The notes beneath the pieces were generated by a model that was not told where the DNA came from, searched no databases, and saw only the letters and a list, made by a program, of their open reading frames with translations. 64,000 bases of DNA from the sequence record PZ386971.1. The stretch is one strand, 5' to 3'. The position numbers were made by a program, and so were the translations under genes. The stretch's first letter is position 1; each line of letters starts with the position of its first letter. Shown here in pieces: positions 549-52,845 of this stretch. Source of the DNA: a phage.

Positions 549-572
549 CCCCAACAAACGTTGGGGATTTTT
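549..572 (+). terminator. hairpin terminator (CCCCAAC-aaacg-TTGGGG + TTTTT), copy 1 of a duplicated cassette
   Basis: Perfect stem followed by T run; near-identical copy at 904-927. Confidence 0.6.
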
Positions 573-583
573 ACTTTTAGGGG

Positions 584-612
584 TTTACTTCTATAATGTA
601 AATGCGTATTAT
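584..612 (+). promoter_or_regulatory. early sigma70-type promoter TTTACT-N17-TATTAT
   Basis: Member of a 7-copy family with identical -35 TTTACT and 17-nt spacing. Confidence 0.5.
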
Positions 613-3182: not shown

Positions 3183-3261
3183 ATACGATAGTTTATTGAA
3201 ACCCTTTACTCATCATGGTGAGCCGCCTATCATTTCATCCAATGAAATAAGGAGAATCACC

Positions 3262-6517: not shown

Positions 6518-6796
6518 ATGAATCGTACTGAATTTGTTGCCCACATTGCTTCGACCCAGAACATCACCAAAGGCGAAGCGGAGAAAGTAGTGGCATCCTT
6601 TATCAACGGTGTTAAGACTGCAGTTGCTGCAGGCGCATCTGTACAGCTGGTCGGCTTCGGTGCGTTCGAAGTGAAACACCAAGAAGCGCGTGAAGGCCGC
6701 AACCCTCTGGACGGCCAGACCATTCAGATCGCGGCGAAAAACGTTGTGAAATTCAAAGTGGGCGAAGGTCTGAAGAACGCTGCCAACGGCAAGTAA
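6518..6796 (+). CDS. HU/IHF-family DNA-binding protein
   Basis: Strong match to HU signature VQLVGFGAFEV ... GRNP ... IQIAAKNVVKF. Confidence 0.85.
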   Translation: MNRTEFVAHIASTQNITKGEAEKVVASFINGVKTAVAAGASVQLVGFGAFEVKHQEAREGRNPLDGQTIQIAAKNVVKFKVGEGLKNAANGK

Positions 6797-16362: not shown

Positions 16363-16391
16363 TTTACTTCTTCAATATCCTTCCCTATACT
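16363..16391 (+). promoter_or_regulatory. early promoter TTTACT-N17-TATACT
   Basis: Promoter family member after hairpin AAAGGGGC ... GCCCCTTT. Confidence 0.5.
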
Positions 16392-20157: not shown

Positions 20158-20165
20158 TATAAATA
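20158..20165 (+). promoter_or_regulatory. T4-type late promoter TATAAATA
   Basis: Exact TATAAATA 25 nt upstream of ATG 20190, after hairpin AGCCCC ... GGGGCT. Confidence 0.55.
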
Positions 20166-22171: not shown

Positions 22172-23219
22172 CGAACAATTCATAAATTACGTTGCTCCCA
22201 GACTCGATAAATTCAAGTGGGAACGTGTTGGGTCTGTCGCAAATTTTAGATGCCCACTTTGTGGAGATTCTCTCAAAAGTGCTAACAAGCGACGCGGTTA
22301 TTTTTTCTTCGATCGAGATAATGATTGCTTTCGGTTTAAATGTCATAATTGCCATAACATGAGTGGCTGGGCGTTTGAGTTCTGGTTGAAGAAGTTTGAT
22401 GAACGCTTGTCCACCGAGTACAACATGGAGAAGTTCCGTCTGCTGGGTGATTCATCTTCCAAGCCGCTCCCGGCGCTGAAGCCTTTGCCAAAGCTGACAC
22501 AGTCAGCCCGTATCGGTTCAATGGAGGCTAAACGCGACGAGAGCCTCCTCGGCAATATGCTCCGACTTGATCTGCTACCGCCCAACCATAAGGCTCGGCA
22601 GTACGTACAGGGCAGGGGAATGCCGGAGAGCACGTTGCCCCTCCTGTATTACACCCAACACTTCCGCCAGGATCTACTCCAGTTCGAAACGAACCCCGAG
22701 AAGCAGCTGAAAATCCCCGATGACGAACGGCTGGTGATTCCATTCTGGACGCAAGACGGGCGTATGAAGATCGTCCAGGGGCGTGCATTTGAAGTGCGTG
22801 ATGGGATACTGCGGTACTCTACTGTCAAGCCGCGCGATGAAGACACTAAGGTCTATGGTGAAGACCGGGTGAACATTCACAAGACCAAGCTGGTTGTGGA
22901 AGGTCCGATTGACAGCCTATTCCTACCCAACTGTCTTGCATCGGCCGACGCTGATCTACTGAGTGTGAAGGGCGACATCTATATCCCCGACAACCAGTAC
23001 CGGAACCCGCAGGTGTGTGACGGTATCCAGAAGATGATAGATAAAGGTGTCAAGGTTGTACTGTTCCCACCAGACGTTCCTTGGAAGGATATCAACGACA
23101 TGGTCATGCCATCAAAGGGCAACATGTCCATACAAGACCTCCTGAAGCTGATCGCCAAGAACGTTTACCAGGGTATGGCCGCATCATTACAATTCGCAGA
23201 ACTGAGGAAAGTACGATGA
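22158..23219 (+). CDS. DNA primase, T4 gp61-like
   Basis: Zinc ribbon CPLCGD ... CHNCHN and TOPRIM motif VVEGPIDSLF; colinear with recalled T4 gp61. Confidence 0.85.
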   Translation: MKFLDEQFINYVAPRLDKFKWERVGSVANFRCPLCGDSLKSANKRRGYFFFDRDNDCFRFKCHNCHNMSGWAFEFWLKKFDERLSTEYNMEKFRLLGDSSSKPLPALKPLPKLTQSARIGSMEAKRDESLLGNMLRLDLLPPNHKARQYVQGRGMPESTLPLLYYTQHFRQDLLQFETNPEKQLKIPDDERLVIPFWTQDGRMKIVQGRAFEVRDGILRYSTVKPRDEDTKVYGEDRVNIHKTKLVVEGPIDSLFLPNCLASADADLLSVKGDIYIPDNQYRNPQVCDGIQKMIDKGVKVVLFPPDVPWKDINDMVMPSKGNMSIQDLLKLIAKNVYQGMAASLQFAELRKVR

Positions 23220-23422
23220 CGTTAGAAGAACTGAACAAACTGGACGACGGAGAGATCTTGCGGGGGTACTTGAAATCTCGTGAGGGATATGTCCTATCTG
23301 GGGAAGAGTCTCCGAGTTTCATCCACGGCTGGAAGAATGGTCAGGCGGACTTCCATGGGGTTCCCATCAGTGATGAGCAGGCCGAATTGGCTCGCGAGTT
23401 TGTAAGATTTCGCCCGAACTAA
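23216..23422 (+). CDS. hypothetical small protein (68 aa)
   Basis: ATGA coupling to primase stop. Confidence 0.4.
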   Translation: MTLEELNKLDDGEILRGYLKSREGYVLSGEESPSFIHGWKNGQADFHGVPISDEQAELAREFVRFRPN

Positions 23423-23450
23423 AACTTTTTAATTCACATTACTTCCCTCC

Positions 23451-23476
23451 AGGCCTCATTCGACGAGGCCTTTTAA
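23451..23476 (+). terminator. hairpin terminator (AGGCCTC ... GAGGCCT TTTAAAA)
   Basis: Stem-loop directly after small ORF. Confidence 0.55.
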
Positions 23477-23516
23477 AATACTTCAAAAATAATTTTAAAA
23501 AATTATTGAAAAAGAC

Positions 23517-23545
23517 TTTACTCTTCAATAATAGCGCACTATTAT
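23517..23545 (+). promoter_or_regulatory. strong early promoter TTTACT-N17-TATTAT with AT-rich UP-like region
   Basis: Promoter family member preceded by 40 nt of A/T. Confidence 0.55.
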
Positions 23546-23617
23546 AATCACATAGGGCGGCAACACACCGCCGAATGAAAAGTGAAACGAACCAACTACA
23601 TTATGAGGAATTACATC

Positions 23618-24106
23618 ATGGCTACTACCAAAACTCTGATCACCAACGGCACCATCTCTTTCGAACTGAACACCGAAGTTGCTAAAGTTGAAATGTTCCG
23701 CATCGCTCAAGCAGCTGGCTTCACTGGTGGCAAAACTTCCTTCATGAACCTGCTGAACGGTAAAGTGAAAGCGACTAACGGCTTCACCCTGGTAGAGCAG
23801 GTTGTGGTTGATAAAGCTGTGGTTGCTAAGACTGCCGACAAAGTTGGTATGCTGAAAAACCTGGGCCACGACATTCACATTGTCGAAGCGAAGACCGAAA
23901 CTTACGGCACCATCGTAGTCGGTAAAGGTCGCATCCAGCTGAACCCACTGAACAACGGTTCCTTCTCTGTGATGGTCTTCCCTAAGAAGGGATACGACAA
24001 CACCGACATCGTGAAAGCTGCTGGCGGCGAAGCAAAAGCTCAGTACGTCAAAATGGGTAAACTGAGCGCCGACGCAGTTGAAGATCTGGTGAGCAAACTG
24101 GCCTAA
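23618..24106 (+). CDS. abundant hypothetical protein (162 aa), highly codon-optimised
   Basis: ATG with GAGGAA RBS; strong promoter; optimal codons. Confidence 0.6.
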   Translation: MATTKTLITNGTISFELNTEVAKVEMFRIAQAAGFTGGKTSFMNLLNGKVKATNGFTLVEQVVVDKAVVAKTADKVGMLKNLGHDIHIVEAKTETYGTIVVGKGRIQLNPLNNGSFSVMVFPKKGYDNTDIVKAAGGEAKAQYVKMGKLSADAVEDLVSKLA

Positions 24107-24251
24107 TCCAGACGTGTAACATAGGGGAGGCAACTCCCCCTATCAGGTCTTGGGAGGAGATCACAGTCATTCAATCCTCTTTGGTGCTCTCTGGGTTGCT
24201 GACACATCCAGAACAAAGTCTCCCCCAGCTCCTCGAGTAGTTCACTTTCAC

Positions 24252-24261
24252 TTTAAATACC
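24252..24261 (+). promoter_or_regulatory. late promoter-like element TTTAAATACC
   Basis: Shares TAAATACC core with gp5 promoter; about 28 nt upstream of endolysin ATG. Confidence 0.45.
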
Positions 24262-24288
24262 TCTGCATTCATTGTGGAGGTATTTCTT

Positions 24289-25083
24289 ATGGCCATTCTA
24301 AAACTTGGCAACCGTGGCACTGAAGTGAAGGCACTTCAGGATAGCCTCAACAAAATCGGCTTCACCCTCGTCGCTGATGGTATCTTTGGCAAGGCAACAG
24401 AGAACGCCGTCAAGACTGTTCAGGCGGGTGCGGGGCTTGTCATCGATGGTATCGTGGGTCCAAAGACCTCCTATGCTATTCGCAACGCCGGAGACGCCCA
24501 TCAGGATCATCTAACTGAGTCAGACCTGATTGATGCTGCTAACGATCTGGGTGTTGACCTCGCCTCTGTCAAGGCGGTGAATCAGGTTGAGTCGCGCGGC
24601 ACGGGCTTCACCAAGTCAGGTAAGATCAAGACATTATTTGAGCGCCACATCATGTATAAGAAGCTGATGGCGAAGTTCGGACAGGCTCGGGCGAATGCCA
24701 TGGGACATATGTACCCGACGTTGGTCAGTCCTTCCGCAGGCGGGTACACGGGAGGCGACGCGGAGTTGGATCGACTTCATGCGGCCATCAACATCGATGA
24801 GGATTGTGCGTACGAGAGCGCCTCTTACGGTCTCTTCCAGATCATGGGATTCAACTGCCAGGTCTGTGGATACGCCAACGCCAAGGAGATGTTCAACGAC
24901 TTCCTGACAGGAGAACGTGCTCATTTGATGGCATTCGTGAAGTTCATCAAGGCTGACGCCAAGCTCTGGCAGGCTCTGAAGGACAAGAACTGGTCTGAAT
25001 TTGCACGGCGCTATAATGGTCCGGCGTATGCCAAGAACCAGTACGACAAGAAGCTCGCAGCAGCATACAAGAGTTTCAGTTAA
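24289..25083 (+). CDS. endolysin: N-terminal peptidoglycan-binding domain + C-terminal N-acetylmuramidase (DUF3380-like)
   Basis: PG_binding_1-like N-terminus (LKLGNRGTEVKALQ ... DGIFG); C-terminal motifs typical of DUF3380 muramidases. Confidence 0.7.
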   Translation: MAILKLGNRGTEVKALQDSLNKIGFTLVADGIFGKATENAVKTVQAGAGLVIDGIVGPKTSYAIRNAGDAHQDHLTESDLIDAANDLGVDLASVKAVNQVESRGTGFTKSGKIKTLFERHIMYKKLMAKFGQARANAMGHMYPTLVSPSAGGYTGGDAELDRLHAAINIDEDCAYESASYGLFQIMGFNCQVCGYANAKEMFNDFLTGERAHLMAFVKFIKADAKLWQALKDKNWSEFARRYNGPAYAKNQYDKKLAAAYKSFS

Positions 25084-30102: not shown

Positions 30103-30151
30103 AAAGCCCCTCATTGAGGGGCTTTACTTCTATAATCCCTGCGCTTATACT
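30103..30151 (+). promoter_or_regulatory. terminator hairpin (AGCCCCTC ... GAGGGGCT) fused to early promoter TTTACT-N17-TATACT
   Basis: Same cassette architecture as at 549-612. Confidence 0.55.
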
Positions 30152-48591: not shown

Positions 48592-48603
48592 GCAATTCAA
48601 TAA

Positions 48604-48632
48604 AGCGGGTCATAGGGTATAATTCTATGATC
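48604..48632 (+). promoter_or_regulatory. sigma70-like promoter TTCAAT-N16-TATAAT
   Basis: Hexamers with 16-nt spacing upstream of 48656. Confidence 0.4.
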
Positions 48633-49376: not shown

Positions 49377-49405
49377 TTTACTTTCAAGAAATAATCGCCT
49401 AATAT
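49377..49405 (+). promoter_or_regulatory. early promoter TTTACT-N17-TAATAT
   Basis: Promoter family member. Confidence 0.5.
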
Positions 49406-49436
49406 TTAATCTGTATTGAAGAGTTACAACTACATC

Positions 49437-50967: not shown

Positions 50968-51197
50968 CATGCGCAAGTATTTCAACTGGCTGTTGGCAAG
51001 CCCCTGAGCACCGAAATCCGTTGTCTGATAGATGCGATCGATGTTGAAATGGAATGGCGAGCGCCGGATTAATCGCACAAAGGCTCAGGCCGAAATTAAA
51101 ATCGTGAAGAAGTCCACAAGGCTCTGGGTTTCATAACAAATAATTCAATAAACTATTCACCCATATAATACATGGGAACTTACAGAAGGAACAGACC

Positions 51198-52740: not shown

Positions 52741-52845
52741 TGGATACAGAAGTCATTATCAGCCAAGCAAGATCCCACACCCGCCAATAATCTATTGAAG
52801 TCCCCAGGGTTATAATAGCAGCACATATAACCCTGGAGACACCGC

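What the first reader, a model, noticed from the sequence alone, without database searches (positions are those of the whole stretch)
23517..24106. Very highly expressed 162-aa protein of unknown function
It has an A/T-rich UP-like region, an early promoter, a strong RBS inside the conserved leader, near-optimal codon usage and a following hairpin. These are hallmarks of one of the most abundant phage proteins, yet the sequence matches no family I recognise. A late-like TTTTAAAATAC element also lies upstream.
Basis: seen in the sequence. Interest (0 to 1): 0.45.

Follow-up and report, generated by a model that had tools for sequence, protein, structure and literature searches.

The report
Bulk-expressed orphan early phage protein
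A 162-residue protein with no known function, conserved in all Vi1-like (Ackermannviridae) phages, has the strongest codon optimisation in the genome and its own conserved early expression cassette, so it is probably made in very large amounts; I tentatively propose a DNA/transcription-directed takeover role.

Summary
Window 23618..24106 (+) encodes a real 162-aa, 17-kDa, basic protein of an Agtrevirus-like Ackermannviridae phage. Its codon adaptation is the highest of 81 window ORFs. In the closest complete genome it is the highest of 170 ORFs, above the major head protein.

The gene sits in a self-contained cassette conserved from Salmonella to Vibrio phages:
- upstream terminator
- 91% A+T UP-like tract
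- T4-early-type promoter
- 5' hairpin
- GAGGA Shine-Dalgarno (ribosome-binding) site
- 3' tetraloop hairpin

The 'late-like' TTTTAAAATAC is only the tail of the upstream terminator.

Function is unproven. My best guess (about 0.3) is a stoichiometric DNA/transcription-directed takeover protein linked to an over-represented TTCAATAA box. That box brackets the -35 of its own promoter and sits at about -30 in a promoter class lacking a -35. MotA/AsiA-type regulators have been reported missing from these phages.

Interest is moderate: a solid unknown rather than a demonstrated new mechanism.

The parts
23451..23475 (+). Intrinsic-terminator-like hairpin GGCCTCattcgacGAGGCC plus TTTT, ending the upstream primase operon.
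   Evidence: Fold -12.2 kcal/mol, z -4.07. Conserved in 4 genera. Annotated as a terminator in LIMEstone1.
23476..23516 (+). A/T-rich UP-element-like tract. TGAAAAAGA lies at about -46 to -38.
   Evidence: 92% A+T in the 25 nt before the -35, the highest of the promoter family. Read directly.
23502..23532 (+). Perfect 9-nt inverted repeat ATTATTGAA / TTCAATAAT bracketing the -35 hexamer. These are two TTCAATAA boxes, centres 21 bp apart.
   Evidence: (repeat I3). Kept in six genera, with the arms swapped in Erwinia phiEa2809.
23517..23548 (+). T4-early-type sigma-70 promoter TTTACT-17-TATTAT(AAT).
   Evidence: The promoter family gives 9 hits against 0.4 expected.
23551..23577 (+). 5'-proximal stem-loop of the leader (core GGCGG/CCGCC 23556-23572). 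Inferred to stabilise the mRNA.
   Evidence: -11.3 kcal/mol, z -3.62. Conserved in the alignment. I read analogous 5' hairpins by eye in the Vibrio and metagenomic relatives; they were not folded.
23605..23609 (+). Shine-Dalgarno GAGGA, 8 nt upstream of the ATG.
   Evidence: Sequence. Conserved ATGAGG in 5 of 6 genera.
23618..24106 (+). CDS of 162 aa, 17.2 kDa, pI 9.4. N-domain 1-64, low-confidence linker 65-71, C-domain 75-162.
24121..24143 (+). 3' G+C hairpin with a GCAA tetraloop and no U-run. Inferred to be a leaky terminator or 3' stabiliser.
   Evidence: A hairpin is present in 9 of 10 homologous loci with different stems and GNRA/UUCG loops.

Best explanation
SHOWN. Window 23451-24143 is a self-contained early transcription unit of an Agtrevirus-like Ackermannviridae phage. 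It consists of:
- an upstream terminator
- an A/T-rich UP-like tract
- a T4-early-type sigma-70 promoter
- a 5' stem-loop
- a Shine-Dalgarno site
- a 162-codon ORF with the strongest host-adapted codon usage in the genome
- a 3' tetraloop hairpin

The product is a basic 17-kDa protein. It is a core gene of the family, is not found in virions, and is modelled as two domains joined by a flexible linker.

INFERRED. The protein is made early and in bulk, at a level typical of stoichiometric binders such as SSB or HU rather than of enzymes or ordinary regulators.

PROPOSED MECHANISM (least certain). It is a DNA/transcription-directed takeover protein. One domain contacts DNA. That is either the C-domain, an alpha/beta sheet with invariant T-E-T-Y, R, Q, K and Q-Y residues, or the N-domain, a helix-GGKTS-helix hairpin. 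The other domain contacts a partner such as RNA polymerase. It acts at the TTCAATAA boxes, which bracket the -35 of its own promoter (suggesting self-limitation or early shut-off) and occupy about -30 in a promoter class lacking a -35 (suggesting middle-type activation).

In role this would resemble T4 MotA, or the abundant architectural regulators phi29 p6 and SPO1 TF1. It is not a member of any of those families.
For: Expression design
- CAI 0.674, z about +4, top of 81 window ORFs.
- The homologue is top of 170 ORFs in the closest genome. Ranking: target 0.70, major head 0.64, HU-like 0.585, sheath 0.51, SSB 0.48.
- ENC is the lowest in the window.
- The promoter family is non-random, 9 hits against 0.4 expected.
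- Promoter, leader hairpin and 3' hairpin are conserved across genera and in Vibrio phages D506 and Kuja.

Core gene, not in virions
- 355 phage records carry it.
- The LIMEstone1 homologue is absent from the 39-protein virion mass-spectrometry list.

Architecture
- AF2 model pLDDT 85, two domains, linker pLDDT below 50.
- Relatives have long Ala/Pro/Lys-rich linkers.
- Some relatives keep the N-domain but carry a DUF3489 winged-helix-like C-terminus (E 3e-5, below Pfam threshold).
- pI is 9.4. Conserved basic residues are K23, K/R39, K49, R105, K124, K140 and K148.

The TTCAATAA box
- 14 copies against 2.3 expected in the window, mostly intergenic.
- A box lies within or next to 7 of 8 early-type promoters.
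- A perfect inverted pair brackets the target's -35, kept in six genera.
- It is the most frequent 8-mer 10-14 nt upstream of TATAAT in both the Agtrevirus genome and Vibrio phage D506. The same procedure on T4 returns the MotA box TGCTTCAA.
- It is enriched about fivefold in both phages that carry the gene and not in the 34 kb of T4 examined (7 against 4.1 expected).

An open niche
- Kutter et al. 2011 report no MotA, AsiA or identifiable early/middle control in ViI-like phages (PMC3184105).
- tblastn with T4 AsiA finds no Ackermannviridae among the listed hits or in the organism and record-size profile of its 1169 records.

Distant homologues sit near topoisomerase II or rIIB genes, as motA does in T4. 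This is weak evidence.
Against: - No direct evidence of DNA binding exists. Nothing ties this particular protein to the box, and any other conserved phage or host factor could read it.
- hhalign against MotA finds nothing.
- In T4 the regulators are not codon-optimised (motA 0.34, alc 0.26, asiA 0.26), whereas bulk DNA binders are (gp32 0.45, dsbA 0.44). A plain MotA-like activator would therefore not need this expression level.
- The phage already encodes an HU-like protein with the second-highest CAI in the window.
- In Kuja the box is enriched only about threefold and is not associated with TATAAT.
- No expression data exist.
Confidence: 0.3

Rival explanations
1. Alc-like host-transcription inhibitor. 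The protein binds host RNA polymerase stoichiometrically and stops transcription on unmodified host DNA. It spares the phage genome, whose thymidines are hypermodified in ViI-like phages.
For: - Nearly the same length as T4 Alc (162 against 167 aa).
- hhalign aligns the last ~90 residues end to end with the Alc family, including matching ...NP... strands and the C-terminal LSxDDIVExI helix. P is 0.023 against the single sequence and 0.049 profile against profile.
- Only 4 of 150 column-shuffled controls reach that score.
- Foldseek on BFVD lists an 'ALC protein' model at probability 0.92, E 0.15.
- Ackermannviridae DNA carries hmdU-derived hypermodifications (PMC5889632 abstract).
- A need to titrate RNA polymerase would fit high expression.
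Against: - The statistics are not significant once the several T4 candidates tried are taken into account.
- Pfam Alc (PF17527) does not hit.
- The N-terminal halves are unrelated.
- T4 alc itself is not codon-optimised (0.26).
- This reading does not explain the TTCAATAA pair at the target's own promoter.
Confidence: 0.12
2. Abundant protein-binding decoy or inhibitor, either anti-defence or a host-factor blocker. The C-domain would be a chaperone, immunity or PsiB-like protein-binding module made in excess to titrate a host protein or an immune signal.
For: - Titrating inhibitors such as T7 Ocr are classically the earliest and most abundant phage products (established knowledge).
Against: - The protein is basic, so it is not a DNA mimic.
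- No PADLOC, Pfam or NCBIfam link.
- It is a universally conserved single-copy core gene at a fixed locus next to the primase in the five genera examined. Anti-defence genes are usually variable accessory genes.
- Its conservation is ordinary for a core gene.
Confidence: 0.2
3. Sequence-non-specific bulk nucleic-acid binder, such as a second SSB-like, RNA-chaperone or chromatin-like protein. It would act in replication, recombination or mRNA protection and would be unrelated to the TTCAATAA box.
For: - Codon adaptation exceeds that of the phage's own SSB and HU-like proteins.
- In T4 only bulk DNA binders show raised CAI among the early genes examined.
- The gene lies beside primase or topoisomerase genes in all lineages.
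- Basic pI and conserved Lys, Arg and Tyr residues on predicted strands.
Against: - No OB, Whirly, Alba or HU fold match.
- The phage already has SSB, HU-like and 'histone family' proteins.
- The invariant polar cluster T-E-T-Y / R-x-Q / Q-Y looks more like specific recognition than coating.
Confidence: 0.15
4. Structural or morphogenetic protein (internal head protein, decoration or scaffold) that happens to be transcribed early as well.
For: - A CAI above that of the major head protein is the level expected of a major virion component.
- Neighbouring genes upstream (LIMEstone1 ORF078-082) are virion proteins.
Against: - ORF073 is not among the 39 LIMEstone1 virion proteins, although trace non-structural proteins were detected.
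- No TATAAATA late promoter is present.
- By my reading of the sequence there is no T4-type (L/I)xE prohead-protease site after a short targeting peptide.
- The N-terminus is a folded, conserved domain.
Confidence: 0.05
5. Ordinary, moderately expressed accessory protein. On this view the codon bias and hairpins are incidental, for example a result of amino-acid composition or recent transfer.
For: - No expression measurement exists.
- The CAI weights were recalled from memory.
- The ORF is short, so CAI and ENC are noisier.
Against: - Two independent measures agree (CAI and ENC).
- The rank holds genome-wide.
- Homologues occur only in phages, none in bacterial chromosomes except as phage contamination.
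- The cassette is conserved across very divergent phages.
Confidence: 0.05

Closest known systems
T4 MotA (middle-transcription activator; Pfam MotA_activ + MotCF)
   Same: - Early-expressed two-domain protein of similar size with a flexible linker.
- The phage has a conserved 8-bp box centred at about -30 of promoters lacking a -35, the geometry of the MotA box.
- Distant homologues lie near topoisomerase II or rIIB genes, as motA does.
   Different: - No sequence similarity (Pfam, hhalign).
- The N-domain is beta-beta-alpha-alpha-beta, whereas by my recollection the MotA N-terminal domain is helical.
- No AsiA partner is detectable.
- The box sequence is different (TTCAATAA against TGCTTtA).
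- Codon optimisation is far higher than for T4 motA (0.67 against 0.34).
- Binding to the box is untested.
T4 Alc (PF17527), transcription terminator on unmodified DNA
   Same: - Same length.
- A full-length alignment of the C-terminal ~90 residues with matching predicted strand/helix order.
- A weak Foldseek hit to an Alc model.
- Both phages have modified DNA.
   Different: - The similarity is statistically insignificant (P about 0.03-0.05).
- The N-terminal halves are unrelated.
- T4 alc is not codon-optimised.
phi29 p6 and SPO1 TF1 (very abundant early architectural DNA-binding regulators)
   Same: - Small, early, extremely abundant phage proteins.
- According to established knowledge they both organise phage DNA and switch early promoters off and later ones on.
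- TF1 prefers hmU-DNA, and Ackermannviridae DNA is hmdU-derived.
   Different: - No sequence or fold relation.
- The true HU/TF1 homologue of this phage is a different gene (6518..6796).
- DNA binding by the target is unproven.
PHROG 3764 (phage orthologous group, unknown function)
   Same: Full-length match, E 1.4e-91. The target is a typical member.
   Different: The group carries no functional information.

Membership tests
PHROG 3764 (unknown function) | Full-length profile match | tested here: met
   E 1.4e-91, residues 1-162 on profile positions 1-162.
T4 MotA | Sequence match to MotA_activ/MotCF or to T4 MotA | tested here: not met
   Pfam gives 0 hits at E up to 1. hhalign of the family profile against T4 MotA aligns only 12 columns, probability 0.4%.
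T4 MotA | C-terminal 'double-wing' DNA-binding fold | tested here: inconclusive
T4 MotA | Co-activator AsiA encoded by the same phage | tested here: not met
   tblastn with T4 AsiA hits 1169 records. No Ackermannviridae appear among the listed hits, and the organism and record-size profile points to T4-like phages. Kutter 2011 reports no MotA or AsiA.
T4 MotA | Cognate box centred near -30 of promoters lacking a -35, bound by the protein | tested here: inconclusive
   A box with this geometry exists: TTCAATAA sits 11-14 nt upstream of TATAAT. Binding by this protein cannot be tested with these tools.
T4 Alc (PF17527) | Profile match to the Alc family | tested here: inconclusive
   No Pfam hit. 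hhalign profile-profile P 0.049 over 89 columns. 4 of 150 shuffles reach that score. Foldseek E 0.15, probability 0.92 to an 'ALC protein' model.
T4 Alc (PF17527) | Binds RNA polymerase beta and terminates on unmodified DNA | not testable with these tools
   Needs biochemistry.
HU/IHF (Bac_DNA_binding) | Pfam PF00216 match | tested here: not met
   No hit for the target. The phage's HU-like protein is the separate gene 6518..6796 (E 5.7e-29).
P-loop NTPase | Walker A [AG]x4GK[ST] with invariant Lys in a strand-loop-helix | tested here: not met
   A33-T40 (AGFTGGKT) fits the pattern. However, Lys39 is Arg in many homologues and Ser in one. The motif lies between two helices of a 65-residue domain.
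E2/UEV/RWD fold | UBC-like alpha/beta sandwich, with a catalytic Cys for active E2s | tested here: inconclusive
T3SS-chaperone / YbjN / PsiB-like fold | alpha-beta-beta-beta-alpha-beta-beta-alpha chaperone fold | tested here: inconclusive
T4-type early (sigma-70) promoter | GTTTAC-like -35, 17-nt spacer, TATAAT-like -10, A/T-rich upstream region | tested here: met
   TTTACT-17-TATTAT with 92% A+T upstream. The family gives 9 hits against 0.4 expected. The T4 early consensus itself is from my own knowledge.
T4-type late promoter | TATAAATA at -10 | tested here: not met
   TTTTAAAATAC lacks the core and abuts a terminator stem. The only TATAAATA in the window is at 20158.
Intrinsic terminator (3' hairpin 24121-24143) | G+C stem-loop followed by a U-run | tested here: not met
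   The stem-loop is present but no U-run follows. The scan finds 0 terminators in 22900-24600. Vibrio homologues do have T-runs.

The most novel reading that the evidence does not exclude
The protein is the missing early-to-middle transcription switch of ViI-like phages. It would be a DNA-binding factor of a previously undescribed fold that reads TTCAATAA at about -30. It would redirect host RNA polymerase without an AsiA-type co-factor and limit its own early promoter through the box pair around the -35. That would be a second, independently evolved solution to what T4 does by sigma appropriation.
Probability: 0.15. Interest if true: 0.75.

Novelty: new variant of a known kind. Interest (0 to 1): 0.5.

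Why it matters
Ackermannviridae phages (Kuttervirus, Agtrevirus, Limestonevirus, Taipeivirus) are widely isolated and used against Salmonella, E. coli O157, Klebsiella and Dickeya. The gene their codon usage marks as the most heavily expressed is annotated 'hypothetical' in all 355 records.

The 2011 CBA120 genome paper stated that no early promoters and no early/middle regulators could be identified in these phages. This analysis provides three things:
- a concrete early-promoter consensus
- a conserved TTCAATAA box with MotA-box-like placement
- a prime candidate protein

Together these turn that open question into a few bench experiments. If the protein instead proves to be a bulk decoy or chromatin-like protein, it would still be a dominant, unexplored part of the infected-cell proteome.

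Tried and rejected
- **Conserved leader as a repeat inside the window.** blastn-short of the 198-nt upstream region against the window found only one weak 16-nt match, at 49427. The leader is conserved between genomes, not within the window.
- **Late promoter.** Rejected, as described in the observation check.
- **Rfam.** No family matches 23300-24400 at E up to 1.
- **Pfam, NCBIfam, PADLOC, PDB sequence search.** Nothing meaningful.
- **AtlE autolysin hit.** A profile search of the PDB gave E 2e-5 to the S. epidermidis AtlE repeats (4epc). The 1.84-billion-protein search gave multi-stretch hits to giant proteins of 1,591-2,895 aa. Two of those giants (P0082, P0095) and the smaller multi-stretch hit P0100 (398 aa) hit many unrelated Pfam families with zero significant stretches, so I judged these matches compositional or beta-meander artefacts.
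- **Walker-A / Era-like GTPase resemblance of GFTGGKTSFMNLLNGK.** Weak FeoB hits. Rejected because Lys39 is replaced by Arg in homologues and the motif sits in a helix-loop-helix context.
- **Paralogues in the same genome.** None found by HMM search of the six-frame translation.
- **afdb50 fold library.** Unavailable.
- **Literature.** Searches for Ackermannviridae transcriptomics, infected-cell proteomics or the box motif found nothing relevant.
- **RNAalifold on the 3' hairpins.** The alignment was out of register, so covariation counts are not meaningful. I rely on the single-sequence folds.
- **Conservation level.** It is ordinary for a core gene: 93-95% identity to close genera and 47-54% to distant ones, similar to primase, endolysin and PhoH. 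There is no argument from exceptional constraint.
Full report
**What the window is.** The 1-kb region around the finding is 97.8% identical to Salmonella phage vB_CECAV_050 (Ackermannviridae, Aglimvirinae, Agtrevirus). It is 89-97% identical to many Kuttervirus, Agtrevirus and Limestonevirus genomes. The gene order is primase, a small ORF, the target, endolysin, PhoH, NrdA. This order is the same in the five genera examined.

**Checking the observation.**

The ORF runs from ATG 23618 to TAA 24106 and encodes 162 aa. Homologues begin at the same Met. The in-frame upstream ATG at 23603 lies inside the Shine-Dalgarno region and is not conserved.

Upstream there is a stable hairpin at 23451-23471 (-12.2 kcal/mol, z -4.1) followed by TTTT. 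LIMEstone1 annotators call the equivalent a factor-independent terminator. It lacks the T4-type late core TATAAATA, whose only exact copy in the window is at 20158, in front of a virion-protein gene.

After the terminator comes a 91% A+T tract. Next is TTTACT-17 nt-TATTAT(AAT) at 23517-23548. This is one of a family TTTACW-N15-17-TAWNMT with 9 hits against 0.4 expected. All hits are on the + strand and all lie in intergenic gaps. From my own knowledge, the GTTTAC-type -35 with an A-rich upstream region is the T4 early-promoter signature.

The transcript would begin with a stem-loop at 23551-23577 (-11.3 kcal/mol, z -3.6). GAGGA lies 8 nt before the ATG.

After the stop codon there is a G+C hairpin with a GCAA loop at 24121-24143. 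It has no U-run, and the scan reports no terminator.

The 'conserved leader' is not repeated within the window. It is conserved between genomes. Promoter, leader hairpin and SD align across Agtrevirus, Kuttervirus, Limestonevirus, Taipeivirus, Nezavisimistyvirus and Miltonvirus, while the flanking intergenic DNA diverges.

Reading the upstream sequences of Vibrio phages D506 and Kuja and of two metagenomic relatives, I see the same design: a promoter with an A/T-rich upstream region and a 5' hairpin. Nine of the ten loci folded also have a G+C hairpin directly after the stop codon, with different stems and GNRA or UUCG loops.

**Codon usage.**

CAI is 0.674 against a window mean of 0.343 (sd 0.083), the highest of 81 ORFs. 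The E. coli weights are Sharp & Li values recalled from memory. ENC, which does not depend on a host reference set, is 32.9, the lowest in the window (mean 50.4).

| Gene in vB_CECAV_050 | CAI |
|---|---|
| Target homologue (rank 1 of 170 ORFs) | 0.70 |
| Major head protein | 0.64 |
| HU-like protein | 0.585 |
| Scaffold | 0.575 |
| Tail sheath | 0.51 |
| SSB | 0.48 |

So the sequence-level claim of 'built for very high expression' is well supported. I found no transcriptomic or infected-cell proteomic data for this phage family, so it remains an inference.

The protein is not a virion component at the sensitivity of the LIMEstone1 study. ORF073 is missing from the 39 proteins detected, which included trace PhoH, ligase and the clamp-loader subunit gp44.

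**What the protein is.**

- It is 17.2 kDa with pI 9.4 and contains no Cys or Trp.
- Pfam, NCBIfam, PADLOC and PDB sequence searches give nothing meaningful. PHROG 3764 ('unknown function') matches full-length.
- Homologues occur only in phage-sized contigs. There are 68-78 clusters at 90% identity and 355 phage records, every listed one annotated 'hypothetical'.
- An exhaustive profile search adds distant members. Some have long Ala/Pro/Lys-rich linkers between the two halves.
- Others keep only the N-terminal ~65 residues. In these the C-terminus is a sub-threshold DUF3489 winged-helix-like domain or other short helical C-termini.
- AlphaFold2 with a 30-sequence alignment gives pLDDT 85. The N-domain (1-64) is beta-beta-alpha-alpha-beta, the linker (65-71) has low confidence, and the C-domain (75-162) is alpha-beta4-alpha-beta-alpha.
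- Invariant residues cluster in G-F-x-G-G-(K/R)-T-S-F-x-x-L between the two N-domain helices. In the C-domain they cluster in A-x-T-E-T-Y-G-T, G-R-x-Q-x-N-P, F-P-K-K-G and K-x-Q-Y on the predicted sheet.

**Fold searches.**

- E2/UEV/RWD folds
- T3SS chaperones and YbjN-like proteins
- PsiB
- immunity proteins

I followed up the two T4 leads.
- hhalign of the family profile against MotA finds nothing.
- Against T4 Alc, and against a 17-sequence Alc alignment, it aligns the whole C-terminal ~90 residues end to end. P is only 0.023 and 0.049. 4 of 150 column-shuffled controls score as high.

This is a lead, not a demonstration. Membership in any known family is therefore not established.

**A regulatory motif tied to the locus.**

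The -35 of the target's promoter is bracketed by a perfect 9-nt inverted repeat, ATTATTGAA-13 nt-TTCAATAAT. The core TTCAATAA occurs 14 times in the window against 2.3 expected, and 0 of 100 shuffles reach 14. Almost all copies are intergenic.

- A box lies within or next to 7 of the 8 distinct early-type promoters.
- Several others lie 11-14 nt upstream of a TATAAT with no -35 hexamer, for example 48596 and 51144, and likewise 6438 upstream of a TAAACT.
- The inverted pair at the target's promoter is kept in all six genera aligned. In Erwinia phiEa2809 the arms are swapped but still inverted.
- In the complete Agtrevirus genome there are 25 copies against about 5 expected. One other high-CAI gene (138590-139147) has the same bracketed -35.
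- In 100 kb of Vibrio phage D506, whose homologue is about 45% identical, there are 26 copies against about 5 expected. They show a clear TTCAATAA-N11-13-TATAAT class.
- Without presupposing the motif, TTCAATAA is the most frequent 8-mer 10-14 nt upstream of TATAAT in both phages. The same procedure on 34 kb of T4 returns TGCTTCAA, which is the MotA box. The box is not enriched in T4.

The placement, centred near -30 and replacing the -35, is that of a T4 middle promoter. Kutter et al. (2011) wrote that ViI-like phages have no MotA, AsiA or identifiable early promoters (PMC3184105). tblastn with T4 AsiA finds no Ackermannviridae among the listed hits or in the organism profile of its records.

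**Most likely mechanism.**

The shown facts are the early-type promoter, the bulk-expression design, the non-virion status, the two domains on a flexible tether, the basic charge with conserved basic and aromatic residues, the relatives that swap the C-domain for a winged-helix-like module, and the conserved box pair on the gene's own promoter.

Putting these together, I propose a stoichiometric DNA/transcription-directed takeover protein. It would act at TTCAATAA boxes, limiting its own and other early promoters and serving promoters that lack a -35. In role it would resemble MotA, or the very abundant architectural regulators phi29 p6 and SPO1 TF1.

I rate this at about 0.3, for these reasons:
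- Nothing links this particular protein to the box.
- The fold evidence is marginal and fits protein-binding modules equally well.
- In T4 the true regulators are not codon-optimised (motA 0.34, alc 0.26, asiA 0.26), whereas bulk binders are (gp32 0.45, dsbA 0.44). The extreme bias argues for a stoichiometric role rather than a classical activator.
- The phage also has its own HU-like protein with the second-highest CAI in the window.

The rivals, with my estimates, are:

| Rival | Confidence |
|---|---|
| Abundant decoy or inhibitor | 0.2 |
| Non-specific nucleic-acid binder | 0.15 |
| Alc-like inhibitor of host transcription | 0.12 |
| Structural protein | 0.05 |
| Ordinary, moderately expressed protein | 0.05 |

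**Verdict.**

The late-promoter remark does not stand.

The protein belongs to a catalogued but uncharacterised phage family with no demonstrable relative in sequence or fold. The most useful new output is the link between this gene, a defined early-promoter consensus and a MotA-box-like TTCAATAA element in a phage family whose early/middle control was reported as unknown.

Interest is moderate (0.5). It is a well-defined, probably very abundant unknown with a testable hypothesis, not yet a new mechanism.

Noticed in passing
window 570-612, 941-969, 3205-3233, 16363-16391, 23517-23545, 30123-30151, 41405-41433, 49377-49405: A family of T4-early-type promoters, [G/C]TTTACW-N15-17-TAWNMT. There are 9 hits against 0.4 expected, all on the + strand and all intergenic, often right after a terminator hairpin. 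The 2011 CBA120 paper said early promoters could not be identified in ViI-like phages.
   Followed up: partly
window 609, 969, 3193, 6438, 16339, 23503, 23524, 41390, 48596, 49368, 51144, 62686 (8-mers); also L013-L015 and L016-L017: The TTCAATAA box occurs 14 times against 2.3 expected in the window. It is enriched about fivefold in the Agtrevirus genome and in Vibrio phage D506, but not in T4. One class lies 11-14 nt upstream of a -10-like hexamer with no -35: 48596-48623 and 51144-51169 before TATAAT, and 6438 before TAAACT upstream of the HU-like gene. That placement mimics the T4 MotA box.
   Followed up: partly
window 24252-24291: Upstream of the endolysin gene (ATG 24289), the arms AAATACCTC (24255-24263) and GAGGTATTT (24277-24285) can pair and sequester the GGAGG ribosome-binding site. 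The 5' arm overlaps a late-promoter-like TTTAAATA (24252-24259). This looks like the T4 lysozyme (gene e) arrangement. Early read-through transcripts would be untranslatable, while late transcripts that start inside the hairpin would be translated. It implies read-through past the target's 3' hairpin.
   Followed up: no
window 37378-37395, 42372-42394, 52804-52835; L015 about 43160-43185: Several G+C hairpins carry a perfect TATAAT in or near their loop, for example cggggTATAATtaccccg upstream of the SSB gene and ggggctgcTATAATagcagctcc+TTTT. They may be combined terminator and promoter elements. This is unexplained.
   Followed up: no
window 6518-6796: A 92-aa HU-family protein (PF00216, E 5.7e-29) has the second-highest CAI in the window (0.59). 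It is preceded by a TTCAATAA box. It is the likely counterpart of SPO1 TF1 in a phage with hmdU-derived DNA.
   Followed up: partly
L015 38590-39240 (PQ306799.1 138590-139240, minus strand): A 185-aa hypothetical gene outside the window has CAI 0.54, sixth in the genome. Its promoter has the same TTATTGAA...GTTTACT...TTCAATAA architecture as the target's. It has no Pfam match.
   Followed up: partly
L008 6001-6816 (P0105); P0101, P0103, P0104: Distant relatives keep only the N-terminal ~65-residue domain. It is fused through Ala/Pro/Glu-rich linkers to a DUF3489-like winged helix or to other short helical C-termini. They sit in large phage contigs next to topoisomerase II genes. The N-domain is therefore an independent, mobile module.
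   Followed up: partly
L006 2387-2938 (Vibrio phage D506, VPHD506_0173): The annotated start of the D506 homologue (183 aa) is probably about 66 nt too far upstream. The conserved N-terminus MTTITQLRN begins at an ATG preceded by AAGGA, and a promoter and leader lie inside the annotated 5' extension.
   Followed up: no
L014 26672-27175 (PQ306799.1 76672-77175): The closest complete genome is annotated with an 'RNA polymerase ADP-ribosylase'. The 2011 CBA120 paper stated that ViI-like phages lack Alt and ModA homologues. This is worth re-examining in connection with the A/T-rich upstream regions of the early promoters.
   Followed up: no
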